This document shows, one piece after another, positions 7,389 to 57,789 of a DNA stretch of 64,000 bases. Origin of the DNA: Escherichia coli (GTDB lineage Bacteria > Pseudomonadota > Gammaproteobacteria > Enterobacterales > Enterobacteriaceae); NCBI RefSeq assembly GCF_046105845.1, contig NZ_CP151004.1; one strand, 5' to 3'. A program made the translations under genes and the position numbers. The notes under the pieces are model-generated. The model was not told where the DNA came from, ran no database searches, and was given only the letters and a program-made list of their open reading frames with translations. Every line of letters begins with the position of its first letter. The stretch's first letter is position 1.

Positions 7389-7542
7389 CGAAAAATTCCT
7401 GTAGTCGAAAATGTCAAAAATATCGCGACAAAGTACTCGCGACGGGCCTTTCGGGCAAGTGGTATTCGCACTTTTGCTGGTGCAAAAAAGGTGGTACTGT
7501 GCGCGCTCATCAATCCGGTGGTTAACCTTAAGAGAACAACGT

Positions 7543-7797
7543 ATGGAATGCCGTCCGGGTTGCGGGGCGTGTTGCACCGCCCCTTCAATTTCCAGCCCTA
7601 TTCCCGGTATGCCAGATGGCAAGCCCGCCAATACGCCCTGCATTCAGCTTGATGAACAGCAACGCTGTAAAATTTTCACTTCGCCACTGCGACCGAAAGT
7701 TTGTGCGGGCTTACAAGCCAGCGCTGAAATGTGCGGTAACTCGCGTCAGCAGGCAATGACCTGGCTTATCGATCTGGAAATGCTGACCGCGCCTTAG
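7543..7797 (+). CDS. yeiW: Small cysteine-rich protein (84 aa)
   Basis: ATG at 7543 gives [15 protein letters not shown]… with 8 Cys; the track ORF from 7411 is 5'-extended. Its stop overlaps the setB stop in a convergent arrangement. Confidence 0.75.
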
Positions 7798-8975
7798 ACA
7801 TCTTTAATCCGCAGTAAGCAAAACAGAGTGGCGATAATCATCACCATCGCAAACCAGAACACAGCGTGATAACTCCAGATCTCGGCGACGATGCCCGCCA
7901 CTGATCCTGCGATGATCCAGCCCACGCGCGACGTATTGGTATAGAGCGTGGTGGCTGAACCTGCCTGACCGGGCATCAAATCCTGAAAATAGAGCATCCC
8001 GATGCCGCCCAGAATGCCAATAAAAATAGCATTTAGCAGCTGCAAGCCCAACAGAATGGCAGGTGAATGCGCCATCAGCATTCCTGCGTAAAAACAGACG
8101 CCACCCACGGCAGCAACGCGCATTAAGAAGCGCTTACCCAGACGTTTGGCGAAATATCCGGCAATCAACATGGTCGGGATTTCCAGCCCGGCGGCGGTCC
8201 CCATCATCACACCGGCCAGTTTCTCGGGAAGATGCAGTTCGTTGATAATAAATAGCGGCATGTTGATGATGTACAGGCTGTTCGAGCCCCACATCAATGT
8301 ACAAATGACAAACAGCAGCAGCGTATCGCGACGGTTACGGCGCGGCGCTTCAACCGTGCCGGTCGCCAGCGGAAGCTCTTTTTGCATCGACGGTAAAAAC
8401 AGCCACACCATCACGCCGCAAACAATAAACGCTACCGCTGCGCTCAGATACATTACCGTAAAGCTGAAACCCATCGCTAAGGCATAAGCCAGCGGCGGGC
8501 CAATGACCCATGCCAGTGAAACCTGAGCGCGTAAAAAAGAGCTGAACATCACCGCTTCACGTCCGGTTTTGTCAGCATGTTCACGGGCGAGGGCAAACAT
8601 TTGCGGGTTAGCAGTCGAGCCAAAGCTGCTAAGAAAGACGCCAACGAATAGCAAAACAAAGTAGTTGCGATTCCAGGCAAAAAGAGTGCAGGCCAGCACG
8701 CCTAACAGGCAGCAAAAGACAATCAGCGATTTGCGATCGCCGCGCTTATCAGAGCGCCCGGCGAGAAACTGACTTACCAGAATCCCAATGACAGCGCTGC
8801 CGGTAAAGAAGAATCCCACCATCGCCGGGCGGGCATGTACTTCATCAGTAAGAAAAATACTGAGTGTCGGGGTTTGCAGAGCGCCCGCAATACCGGTGAG
8901 AAAGGCAACGATTAAAAACGCCGTCGAGGTCAGATCAAACGATTTCGCGCTGGAGACTGCGGGGGAGTTATGCAT
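7794..8975 (-). CDS. setB: MFS sugar efflux transporter
   Basis: 393-aa ORF with a 12-TM hydrophobic profile, SetA/SetB family. Confidence 0.9.
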
Positions 8976-47569: not shown

Positions 47570-47742
47570 AAAGTTCTTTTGTGTTGCATTGCTGGCGTAA
47601 ATGTCAGCAATGCAGCATTTCCTCACGATTCTCCTTTGACGATCGCACTTTTTGCTCGTTATGATGGCGTCGCTAGCCTCAGTAAATCCTTACTCCGGCG
47701 GTGCGCAACCCGTGCGCGTGAACCACTATCTGAATGCTCATC

Positions 47743-56178: not shown

Positions 56179-56910
56179 ATGAAGATGTTGCGCGATCCGC
56201 TGTTTTGGCTCATTGCTTTGTTTGTGGCACTGCTTTTCTGGCTGCCTTACAGCCAGCCGCTGTTTGCTGCTTTGTTCCCACAACTGCCACGACCCGTTTA
56301 TCAGCAGGAAAGCTTTGCAGCTCTGGCACTGGCTCATTTCTGGCTGGTGGGAATTTCGAGTTTGTTTGCGGTGATCATTGGTACTGGTGCCGGAATTATT
56401 GTTACTCGCCCGTGGGGCGCGGAATTTCGCCCACTGGTGGAAACTATTGCCGCCGTTGGGCAGACTTTTCCGCCCGTTGCGGTGCTGGCGATTGCCGTTC
56501 CGGTGATTGGGTTTGGTCTGCAACCCGCGATTATCGCCTTGATCCTTTACGGTGTGCTGCCCGTCCTGCAGGCGACACTTGCCGGGCTGGGAGCGATTGA
56601 TGCCAGCGTGACAGAAGTTGCGAAAGGTATGGGAATGAGCCGTGGTCAGCGACTGCGTAAGGTCGAGCTACCGCTGGCGGCTCCGGTGATTCTGGCGGGC
56701 GTGCGAACTTCGGTGATTATCAACATTGGTACGGCGACGATCGCCTCAACGGTAGGGGCCAGCACGCTGGGTACGCCGATCATCATCGGGCTTAGCGGAT
56801 TTAATACCGCGTATGTGATCCAGGGGGCGTTACTGGTGGCACTGGCGGCGATCATTGCAGACCGCCTGTTTGAAAGGCTGGTGCAGGCGCTTAGCCAGCA
56901 CGCAAAATAA
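56179..56910 (+). CDS. yehW: Glycine betaine ABC transporter permease
   Basis: 243-aa permease; its stop overlaps the 3' end of the convergent yohO. Confidence 0.9.
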
Positions 56911-56998
56911 AGGTATAACCTGCGAGCATGACGCCACCAATTCCGCCTAACGCCATAAACAGGAACAGGGCGATGACCCCAATTTTAGCTATGCGCAT
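56891..56998 (-). CDS. yohO: 35-aa single-TM small membrane protein
   Basis: Below the track threshold; manual reverse-strand translation from ATG 56998 gives [35 protein letters not shown]. Confidence 0.7.
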
Positions 56999-57057
56999 AA
57001 TGCACTCCTTATGTTAACGAAAGGATTGTACAGTAAAGCGCATTTGTTAACGAATCA

Positions 57058-57789
57058 TTAAATGCCGAGTGGGAAAATATCATGGCCTTGTTCCTGCCAA
57101 CTGGTGAGTTGCTGCTGTTGGGCGGAGGTTCGATTTTCACCGCACCACACCAGCAATGTACGGCCTTCGAACAGTTCAGGGCGTAGTTGATTGAGCGAGT
57201 GGGCGAGGACATCAATGCGCCATCCTTGTTGACTGGCAATCCAGCCCTCCAGCCACAGACGGGTGGTATCATGAATATTCCAGCCAACCACCAACGCATC
57301 TTTACCCTGTTTTTTACGTGCCGAAGCCAGGCAAATGGCGATGTAGTTGATCAGTACGCCGTCGAGGATCGCCAGCAGCGCCTGGAGAGTCGGTTGTTGG
57401 CACTGAAGTCGTCGGCGCAGAGGAATAAACAGATGTGTGGTGAGCGTCTGGGCGGGGTAATCCTGACCGCGCTCTTTGATCCACGTTCGCAGGCTATGCA
57501 GATTGCCGCTTTGCAGGTAAGTCAGTAATGTTTCTTGCTGATCGCGCCAGCCGTTCTGCACATCAACATTTTCATTACTGAGCAGCATTTTAACTTTGCT
57601 GACCTGCACGCCGTTGTCGATCCAGCGTTTGATCTCGCGGATCCGGTCAATATCGGCATCATTGAACAGCCGATGACCGCCGTCTGTCCGTTGCGGTTTC
57701 AGCAATCCGTAACGCCTCTGCCACGCGCGTAACGTGACAGGGTTAATATCACAAAGCAACGCCACTTCACCAATTGTGTAAAGCGCCAT
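57058..57789 (-). CDS. mlrA: MerR-family transcriptional regulator (curli/csgD activator type)
   Basis: 243-aa ORF with N-terminal MerR HTH (MALYTIGEVALLCDINPVTLRAWQRRYGLLKPQRTDGGHRLF…). Confidence 0.9.
   Translation of the reverse strand: MALYTIGEVALLCDINPVTLRAWQRRYGLLKPQRTDGGHRLFNDADIDRIREIKRWIDNGVQVSKVKMLLSNENVDVQNGWRDQQETLLTYLQSGNLHSLRTWIKERGQDYPAQTLTTHLFIPLRRRLQCQQPTLQALLAILDGVLINYIAICLASARKKQGKDALVVGWNIHDTTRLWLEGWIASQQGWRIDVLAHSLNQLRPELFEGRTLLVWCGENRTSAQQQQLTSWQEQGHDIFPLGI

What the first reader, a model, noticed from the sequence alone, without database searches (positions are those of the whole stretch)
56891..56910. Convergent 3'-end overlaps involving small proteins (yohO/yehW and yeiW/setB)
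The yehW stop (56908-56910) lies inside the last codons of the convergent 35-aa yohO (56891-56998), a 20-bp overlap. Likewise the yeiW stop (7795-7797) overlaps the setB stop (7794-7796). Convergent overlap means each mRNA is antisense to the other's 3' end, which can couple their expression through transcriptional interference or RNase III cleavage.
Basis: seen in the sequence. Interest (0 to 1): 0.2.

Follow-up and report, generated by a model that had tools for sequence, protein, structure and literature searches.

The report
Two known tail-to-tail gene overlaps
Two pairs of E. coli genes that face each other really do share their last few bases, but such overlaps are common, are already annotated, and were already listed in 2025 as overlapping-transcript pairs, so the finding is correct but ordinary.

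Summary
yehW (56179-56910, +) and the 35-aa yohO (56891-56998, -) share 20 bp. yeiW (7543-7797, +) and setB (7794-8975, -) share 4 bp, as abutting stop codons (TTAG).

Both overlaps are annotated in RefSeq. Both pairs appear among the 165 convergent "excludons" of E. coli MG1655 (NAR 2025). E. coli has about 75 convergent coding overlaps. In this window, 2 of 10 convergent junctions overlap.

New here:
- The yohO/yehW overlap (14-26 bp, always the same phase) is kept in 79 of 80 Enterobacteriaceae species. It persists even where the gene upstream of yohO differs.
- The shared bases evolve in yohO's reading frame, so the YehW tail is the passive partner.
- yohO has its own conserved promoter.
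- The 4-bp yeiW/setB overlap is kept in 6 of 6 other genera sampled.

Published Term-seq puts the yohO mRNA 3' end 49 nt past its stop, inside yehW, with Rho-dependent termination further in. No intrinsic terminator lies at either junction.

Antisense overlap of the transcripts is therefore real. Regulatory coupling is untested, and both flanking units are RpoS-induced together. Verdict: correct, already known, low interest.

The parts
56179..56910 (+). yehW CDS. It encodes the permease and is the last gene of the osmF-yehYXW glycine betaine ABC transporter operon. Stop TAA at 56908-56910.
   Evidence: ORF list; RefSeq annotation; Pfam BPD_transp_1, 98.7 bits.
56891..56998 (-). yohO CDS, a 35-aa single-helix membrane protein of family UPF0387. 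Its stop TAA is the reverse complement of 56891-56893.
   Evidence: ORF list; RefSeq; NCBIfam NF010225, 80.1 bits; detected by mass spectrometry and ribosome profiling.
56891..56910 (.). The 20-bp stretch that codes on both strands: YehW ...LSQHAK* on + and YohO ...FILRAG* on -. The yehW stop T(A/G)A is the reverse complement of the YohO Phe-Ile codons.
   Evidence: Sequence. The overlap is kept at 14-26 bp in 79 of 80 species. yehW third-position entropy falls from 1.08 to 0.49 bits and from 1.23 to 0.14 bits, while second positions become variable.
56847..56866 (-). Stem-loop GGCGGUC-UGCAAU-GAUCGCC in the yohO 3' UTR, antisense to yehW. The mapped yohO mRNA 3' end lies 5 nt downstream, at about 56842. 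No U-tract follows the stem.
   Evidence: Fold. Term-seq 3' end at MG1655 2215813 (+), classed 'primary yohO, antisense yehW'. Coordinates mapped through.
56650..56670 (-). Approximate peak of a Rho-dependent termination region for yohO-strand transcription inside yehW. It corresponds to MG1655 2215995, about 231 nt past the yohO stop.
   Evidence: Adams 2021 supplementary file 2: Rho score 5.64, p = 9.4e-16. The position is approximate because the score uses 800-nt windows.
57005..57061 (-). yohO's own promoter and leader. Palindrome TTAATGATTCGTTAA at 57047-57061 (contains the mlrA stop), -10 TACAAT at 57025-57030, and Shine-Dalgarno AAGGAG at 57005-57010.
   Evidence: Conserved at fixed spacing in 62-74 of 80 species, and present where mlrA is absent or replaced. 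That it acts as a promoter is inferred, not shown.
57058..57789 (-). mlrA CDS, which lies upstream of yohO on the same strand with a 59-bp gap.
   Evidence: ORF list; RefSeq.
7543..7797 (+). yeiW CDS, an 84-aa cysteine-cluster protein of the YkgJ/CxxCxxCC family. Stop TAG at 7795-7797.
   Evidence: Pfam PF03692, 33.5 bits.
7794..8975 (-). setB CDS, an MFS sugar efflux transporter. Its stop TAA is the reverse complement of 7794-7796.
   Evidence: Pfam MFS_1, 151 bits.
7794..7797 (.). The 4-bp stop-on-stop overlap, TTAG. It reads TTAA or CTAA in other genera.
   Evidence: Sequence. The same 4-bp overlap occurs in Klebsiella, Citrobacter, Leclercia, Cronobacter, Kosakonia and Enterobacter.
7564..7587 (+). 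Terminator-like hairpin GGGGCGTGTTGCACCGCCCC followed by TTCA, inside the 5' end of yeiW. A strong Term-seq 3' end lies 44-45 nt into the ORF.
   Evidence: Terminator scan; Adams 2021 supplementary files 1 and 3.

Best explanation
Both features are ordinary, anciently fixed tail-to-tail coding overlaps. No special device is involved.

yohO/yehW:
- yohO is a lineage-restricted small membrane-protein gene with its own promoter. It ends 20 bp inside the poorly constrained C-terminal tail of yehW.
- The shared bases are held by selection on YohO. The YehW tail simply takes whatever YohO's wobble positions give it.
- No room is left for a terminator between the genes, so each transcript has to end inside the other gene.
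- The yohO mRNA ends after a stem-loop 49 nt past its stop. Rho stops the remaining transcription about 230 nt into yehW.
- The yehW-operon mRNA must run at least 20 nt into yohO. It probably runs through yohO until Rho acts (inferred).

The two mRNAs are therefore necessarily complementary at their 3' ends, which places the pair in the catalogued 'convergent excludon' class. Any effect of one gene's expression on the other is most likely a modest by-product: polymerase collisions that aid termination, plus some dsRNA turnover. It is unlikely to be a switch.

yeiW/setB is the minimal version of the same thing. Two stop codons are written on the same four bases, and much yeiW-strand transcription is cut short early in the ORF.
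For: Shown:
- The coordinates and overlaps are as stated.
- No intrinsic terminator lies at either junction. No conserved junction hairpin is found across 80 species.
- The yohO 3' end lies 49 nt past its stop, with a Rho region further in.
- Both pairs are listed among the 165 convergent excludons.
- E. coli has 75 convergent coding overlaps. In this window, 2 of 10 convergent junctions overlap.
- The overlap is kept in 79 of 80 species, always in the same phase. It is also kept in the most distant YohO relatives, which have different upstream neighbours.
- The dual-coding signature has the yohO frame dominant.
- A YehW tail of similar length exists in a genome without yohO.
- The YohO family is narrow: 17 representative clusters, all at least 60% identical.
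- The yohO promoter module is conserved.
- mlrA and yehW/X/Y are all RpoS-dependent.
- yeiW has an internal 3' end, and the 4-bp overlap is kept in 6 of 6 genera.

Inferred:
- Where the yehW-operon transcript ends.
- That the regulatory effect is small.
Against: - Persistence of the overlap in 79 of 80 species, and yohO staying next to yehW when its upstream neighbour changes, could reflect selection for the arrangement itself. The published excludon study reports higher synteny and less single-cell co-expression for excludon pairs as a group.
- No 3' end was found for the yehW or setB transcripts in the data I could read. Half of the picture is therefore inferred.
- The size of any cross-effect has never been measured.
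Confidence: 0.6

Rival explanations
1. Selected excludon-type regulation. The conserved transcript overlap exists so that transcription of yohO (or mlrA-yohO) and of osmF-yehYXW repress each other. The mechanisms would be head-on polymerase collision and RNase III cleavage of the 3' duplex. The same would hold for setB and yeiW.
For: - Both pairs are in the E. coli excludome. As a class, such pairs show higher synteny and less single-cell co-expression.
- The yohO transcript demonstrably extends at least 69 nt into yehW.
- The overlap is kept in 79 of 80 species.
- yohO has a near-consensus conserved -10 element aimed at yehW.
- Head-on collisions between E. coli polymerases do stop readthrough in vitro.
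Against: - Listing in the catalogue is nearly automatic for genes whose coding regions overlap, so it is not independent evidence.
- There are no pair-specific data.
- The p19 dsRNA validation did not work for convergent 3' overlaps.
- mlrA and yehW/X/Y are all RpoS-dependent, so they are induced together rather than reciprocally.
- Persistence of the overlap is explained more simply: the shared bases code for a constrained YohO C-terminus, and an overlap cannot be split by rearrangement.
- Most yeiW-strand RNA ends 44-45 nt into the ORF.
Confidence: 0.25
2. Protein-level partnership. yohO stays glued to yehW because the 35-aa membrane protein YohO works with the YehZYXW (OsmF-YehYXW) transporter. 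Other small membrane proteins modulate transporters in this way, for example KdpF, AcrZ and MgtS (from general knowledge). On this view the overlap is incidental.
For: - yohO lies next to yehW in 79 of 80 species. This includes genomes where mlrA is missing or replaced by a TonB-dependent receptor, an ArsR-like regulator or metG.
- YohO is a real, selected membrane protein.
Against: - The genes are convergent, not co-transcribed.
- The overlap itself prevents separation by rearrangement. If yohO arose at this spot, adjacency needs no functional explanation.
- A yehW orthologue exists without yohO (L075), and more distant yehW homologues lack it, given the narrow YohO family.
- No interaction or phenotype data were found.
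Confidence: 0.12
3. Annotation artefact. One of the small ORFs (yohO or yeiW) is not a real gene, or has the wrong stop, so there is no true overlap.
For: Small ORFs are often over-called. An upstream in-frame ATG at 7411 gives an alternative 128-aa yeiW, so boundaries can be uncertain.
Against: - YohO has been detected by mass spectrometry and ribosome profiling.
- The yohO reading frame, its stop position and its Shine-Dalgarno sequence are conserved in 79 of 80 species, with a codon-position signature that fits only the yohO frame.
- YeiW is an 84-aa Pfam PF03692 protein with thousands of homologues ending in ...LTAP*.
- Stop codons are not open to choice by an annotator.
Confidence: 0.02

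Closest known systems
Convergent excludons of E. coli MG1655 (ExcludonFinder catalogue, Sanmartin et al., NAR 2025, PMC12288877)
   Same: Both pairs, 'yohO-yehW' and 'setB-yeiW', are named in Table 1 of that paper as neighbouring opposite-strand genes with overlapping transcripts in at least 50% of 58 RNA-seq samples.
   Different: In most excludons the overlap lies in untranslated regions, with a mean intergenic distance of 95 nt. Here the coding regions themselves overlap, so transcript overlap is obligatory. Mutual exclusion has not been shown for these two pairs, and the flanking units at yohO/yehW are co-induced by RpoS.
Convergent overlapping gene pairs in prokaryotes (Huvet & Stumpf 2014, PMC4161906; PairWise Neighbours database, PMC2716372)
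   Same: These are 3'-to-3' coding overlaps that arise by movement of a stop codon. E. coli has 75 such pairs. The 4-bp TTAG/TTAA stop-on-stop form fits this class because TTA and CTA are the reverse complements of stop codons.
   Different: The literature reports fairly frequent gain and loss of overlaps. yohO/yehW is at the stable end, being kept across the whole family and showing a clear hierarchy of constraint.
Bidirectional intrinsic terminators and programmed polymerase collisions between convergent genes (Wang et al., bioRxiv 10.1101/2022.10.23.513370)
   Same: A convergent pair whose transcripts must be stopped in a very short space. Head-on collisions may contribute.
   Different: Neither junction has a GC-rich stem flanked by A- and U-tracts, and no conserved stem-loop is found. 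The mapped yohO 3' end follows a stem without a U-tract and is backed by a Rho-dependent region.
Rho-terminated antisense readthrough into a convergent gene (Adams et al., eLife 2021, PMC7815308)
   Same: The yohO-strand event is listed there as a Rho termination region 'antisense to yehW'. This is the commonest class in that table.
   Different: Nothing differs. This is simply an instance of it.

Membership tests
Convergent overlapping gene pair (coding overlap) | Two annotated protein-coding genes on opposite strands share nucleotides at their 3' ends. | tested here: met
   20 bp at 56891-56910 and 4 bp at 7794-7797.
Convergent overlapping gene pair (coding overlap) | Both ORFs are real genes. 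| tested here: met
   YohO: mass spectrometry and ribosome profiling, NCBIfam equivalog, codon-position signature. YeiW, SetB and YehW: Pfam domains and conserved orthologues.
Convergent excludon | The neighbouring genes are transcribed from opposite strands towards each other. | tested here: met
Convergent excludon | The transcripts of the two genes overlap. | tested here: met
   The yohO 3' end lies 49 nt past its stop, inside yehW. Both pairs are listed from RNA-seq coverage. Overlap is also logically required when coding regions overlap. The 3' ends of the yehW and setB transcripts themselves were not found.
Convergent excludon | Expression of one partner lowers expression of the other (mutually exclusive or inverse expression). 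| tested here: inconclusive
   No pair-specific data exist. mlrA and yehW/X/Y are both RpoS-dependent, so they are induced together in bulk culture. Single-cell data are not available to me.
Convergent excludon | RNase III processes the double-stranded overlap. | not testable with these tools
   The published p19 pull-down captured very few dsRNAs at 3' overlaps. No data from rnc mutants were found.
Bidirectional intrinsic terminator | A GC-rich stem-loop between the genes, flanked by an A-tract upstream and a U-tract downstream, so that it works on both strands. | tested here: not met
   No such site at either junction. The local stem at 56881-56901 has no U-tract on the + strand and only CUUUC on the - strand, and its fold z-scores are not significant. 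No conserved minimum in folding energy across 80 species.
YohO / UPF0387 small membrane protein | Scores above the curated cut-off of the family model. | tested here: met
   NF010225: 80.1 bits against a cut-off of 57, full length 1-35. PF27791 is on record for homologues.
YkgJ / CxxCxxCC cysteine-cluster protein (YeiW) | Scores above the Pfam gathering score for PF03692. | tested here: met
   33.5 bits against a cut-off of 23.

The most novel reading that the evidence does not exclude
The yohO-yehW pairing may be an ancient obligatory module rather than an accident of gene packing. YohO could have arisen on the antisense strand at the end of the yehZYXW operon in an ancestor of the Enterobacteriaceae. 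It would then have been kept there because it controls or assists the transporter, in one of two ways:
- through its mRNA, whose 3' UTR is antisense to at least 69 nt of yehW;
- as a small accessory membrane subunit.

A conserved palindromic operator at the yohO promoter would supply the input signal.
Probability: 0.15. Interest if true: 0.45.

Novelty: already known. Interest (0 to 1): 0.15.

Why it matters
It matters little for the field as a whole. Convergent coding overlaps and overlapping 3' transcripts are well documented in E. coli, and these two pairs are already catalogued.

The modest added value is specific to yohO/yehW:
- It is a clean example of a long-lived dual-coding segment in which a 35-aa protein dictates the sequence of a transporter's tail.
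- The gene of an uncharacterised small membrane protein is tied to one ABC transporter operon across the whole family.
- That link gives a concrete, cheap hypothesis to test for YohO's unknown function.

Tried and rejected
Approaches that gave nothing:
- The intrinsic terminator scan found no hits placed at either junction.
- Folding the junctions gave z-scores of -0.83 and -1.80, which are not significant.
- An imperfect long hairpin antisense to the yohO start (56985-57050, z = -2.45) has no proper U-tract. I did not accept it as a terminator.
- A search for a conserved junction stem-loop across 80 species found no minimum at the overlap relative to the rest of yehW.
- Rfam found nothing at either locus.
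- The Pfam copy in the tool has no YohO model.
The exhaustive representative search was used instead.

Papers and supplements not held:
- Hemm 2008 and Hemm 2010.
- Thomason 2015 transcription start site data.
- Ju 2019 SEnd-seq.
- Supplements of Dar & Sorek 2018.
- Supplements of ExcludonFinder.

The first literature search for 'yohO' alone returned only unrelated papers.

Considered and not run: a structure prediction of a YehW-linker-YohO fusion. With only about 80 closely related sequences and no interface score, the result would not be trustworthy.

Considered and rejected:
- That the TGTACAAT in the E. coli yohO promoter is an MlrA half-site. Other species have TATAAT there.
- That the RpoE SELEX peak inside yehW is meaningful. 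Its intensity of 4.0 equals the cut-off.

Full report
**What is there**

The window is E. coli chromosome. The 1.8-kb stretches around both sites match more than 5,400 complete E. coli genomes at 95-100% identity.

- yehW runs 56179-56910 on the + strand, with stop TAA at 56908-56910.
- The 35-aa yohO runs 56998 down to 56891 on the - strand.
- The two coding regions share 56891-56910, 20 bp.
- yeiW (7543-7797, +, stop TAG at 7795-7797) and setB (8975 down to 7794, -, stop TAA on 7794-7796) share four bases, TTAG.

RefSeq annotates the same genes and the same overlaps, both in close relatives of the window and in MG1655.

All four genes are real.
- YohO matches the NCBIfam equivalog model at 80.1 bits against a cut-off of 57. 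It has been seen by top-down mass spectrometry and in ribosome profiling.
- YeiW, SetB and YehW carry the expected Pfam domains.

**Is it unusual?**

As a class it is not. [quoted passage not shown]

The MG1655 stretch equivalent to this window has ten convergent junctions. Two overlap, and the other eight have gaps of 31-372 bp. Scaling the local junction density to the genome gives a base rate near 11%. This scaling is my extrapolation. At that rate, two or more overlaps among ten junctions has a probability of about 0.3.

The 4-bp form is the minimal convergent overlap. It arises because TTA and CTA are the reverse complements of stop codons.

**Conservation**

I fetched 80 species-level Enterobacteriaceae loci around yehW orthologues.

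In 79 of them a yohO orthologue lies convergent to yehW and the 3' ends overlap:

| Overlap | Loci | Taxa and YohO length |
|---|---|---|
| 26 bp | 42 | Enterobacter, Klebsiella, Kosakonia, Leclercia and others; YohO 37 aa |
| 20 bp | 35 | Escherichia, Citrobacter, Salmonella, Buttiauxella, Cedecea |
| 17 bp | 2 | |
| 14 bp | 1 | Pantoea |

All four lengths share the same reading-frame relationship.

The one exception, L075, has yehW followed by pta. Its YehW tail is of similar length, so the overlap did not arise by extension of yehW.

An exhaustive profile search of 1.84 billion representative proteins found only 17 YohO clusters, all at least 60% identical. The gene is therefore restricted to this lineage.

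The two most distant full-length YohO relatives (60-64% identity) still overlap a yehW-like permease gene by 20 bp. This holds even though the gene upstream of yohO is a TonB-dependent receptor, an ArsR-like regulator or metG rather than mlrA. In several Klebsiella-group and other loci mlrA is absent or hundreds of bases away. yohO therefore travels with yehW, not with mlrA.

The 4-bp yeiW/setB overlap (TTAA, CTAA or TTAG) is present in all six other genera sampled. Pantoea alhagi has yeiW but no setB.

**Dual coding**

In the non-overlapping part of yehW, codon third positions vary most. Their mean entropy is 1.08 bits in the 20-bp group and 1.23 bits in the 26-bp group. Second positions there are nearly fixed.

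Inside the overlap this reverses. Third-position entropy falls to 0.49 and 0.14 bits, and second positions rise to as much as 1.45 bits.

In this phase, yehW position 3 pairs with yohO position 2, and yehW position 2 pairs with yohO's wobble position. The shared bases are therefore evolving as yohO codons, and the last 6-8 residues of YehW vary passively.

The yehW stop T(A/G)A is the reverse complement of part of the conserved YohO Phe-Ile codons (TTY ATT). This is direct evidence that yohO is under selection right up to its stop codon. It also gives a simple reason for the overlap to persist.

**Transcripts**

No intrinsic terminator sits at either junction. Local folds are not significantly stable. 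No conserved stem-loop marks the yohO/yehW junction across species.

Published Term-seq lists a 3' end at MG1655 2215813 (+), classed as the primary 3' end of yohO and antisense to yehW (Adams et al. 2021, PMC7815308).
- It lies 49 nt past the yohO stop and 69 nt inside yehW, at window position ~56842.
- It lies 5 nt after a 7-bp stem-loop (56847-56866) that has no U-tract.
- The same study lists a Rho-dependent termination region peaking at 2215995, about 231 nt past the stop. Its Rho score is 5.64 and p = 9.4e-16.

The yohO-strand RNA therefore certainly crosses the overlap.

No 3' end for the yehW operon or for setB appears in those tables. That the yehW mRNA runs into or through yohO follows only from logic: an mRNA must contain its own stop codon, and no terminator is present.

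For yeiW, a strong 3' end lies 44-45 nt into the ORF, just after a terminator-like hairpin at 7564-7583. Much yeiW-strand transcription therefore stops well before setB.

**yohO's own promoter**

Upstream of yohO there is a conserved module at fixed distances from the ATG:
- a 15-nt palindrome TTAATGATTC(A/G)TTAA at -63. It has three or fewer mismatches in 68 of 80 species, whereas shuffled sequence gives 4-8;
- a -10-like TAYAMT at -32, a perfect TATAAT in most genera;
- AAGGAG at -12.

The module is present even where mlrA is missing. yohO is therefore probably transcribed on its own. This is inferred, because I could not read any transcription start site data.

**Comparison with what is known**

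Both pairs are named in Table 1 of the ExcludonFinder paper (NAR 2025, PMC12288877). They are among the 165 convergent excludons of MG1655, defined by transcript overlap in at least 50% of 58 RNA-seq samples.

For genes whose coding regions overlap, however, being listed is almost automatic. The paper's dsRNA validation did not work for convergent 3' overlaps, and no pair-specific data are given.

Against reciprocal regulation, osmF is a core RpoS-dependent gene, and mlrA and yehW/X/Y are all RpoS-dependent in the same datasets. Head-on collisions between E. coli polymerases do block readthrough in vitro, but precise collision sites needed a stem-loop element. None is conserved here.

**Verdict**

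Antisense overlap of the transcripts is real. Functional coupling is unproven and, for these pairs, somewhat doubtful.
- The feature is already known, both as annotation and as a catalogued excludon.

My best explanation (confidence about 0.6) is a passive, anciently fixed overlap. It is maintained by coding constraint on YohO and by the fact that an overlap cannot be split by rearrangement. Termination is handled inside the partner gene by Rho and a protective stem-loop.

The rivals are a selected excludon (0.25), a protein-level partnership between YohO and the transporter (0.12) and an annotation artefact (0.02).

Interest is low (0.15). The only lead worth keeping is the tight, family-wide link of the uncharacterised YohO to the YehZYXW transporter operon.

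Noticed in passing
window 57047-57061 (- strand), with 57025-57030 and 57005-57010: Conserved promoter module upstream of yohO. It consists of a 15-nt palindrome TTAATGATTC(A/G)TTAA at -63 from the ATG, a -10-like hexamer at -32 and a Shine-Dalgarno sequence at -12. The palindrome contains the mlrA stop codon and has three or fewer mismatches in 68 of 80 species. The module is present even where mlrA is absent. The palindrome looks like an operator for an unidentified transcription factor.
   Followed up: partly
window 7564-7587 (+): Terminator-like hairpin GGGGCGTGTTGCACCGCCCC plus TTCA inside the 5' end of yeiW. It coincides with a strong published Term-seq 3' end 44-45 nt into the ORF. This suggests premature termination or a short stable RNA. 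The stem is imperfect in other genera.
   Followed up: partly
window 57006-57025 (- strand): In the yohO leader, UCCUU can pair with the Shine-Dalgarno AAGGA, giving a possible stem that hides the ribosome-binding site. The fold is not significant (z = -1.09).
   Followed up: partly
window 47658-47738 (+): The only Rfam match in the whole window is the Peptidase-S11 RNA motif (RF03039, 72.8 bits), in the region of pbpG.
   Followed up: no
window ~57751 (- strand; MG1655 2214904): Published Term-seq lists a 3' end 38 nt inside the mlrA ORF. It is another ORF-internal early 3' end in this neighbourhood.
   Followed up: no
window 7411-7542 (+): An in-frame upstream ATG at 7411 would extend yeiW to 128 aa. 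A few database entries annotate this longer form (P0007), but the 84-aa form is the conserved one.
   Followed up: partly
L075 3001-5929: The only one of the 80 yehW loci without yohO is Enterobacterales bacterium CwR94. There yehW is followed, convergently and after a gap of about 58 bp, by pta. The YehW tail is of similar length.
   Followed up: partly
window 56179-56910 (inside yehW): A genomic SELEX study lists an RpoE-holoenzyme binding peak inside yehW. Its intensity of 4.0 equals the cut-off, so it is probably not meaningful.
   Followed up: no
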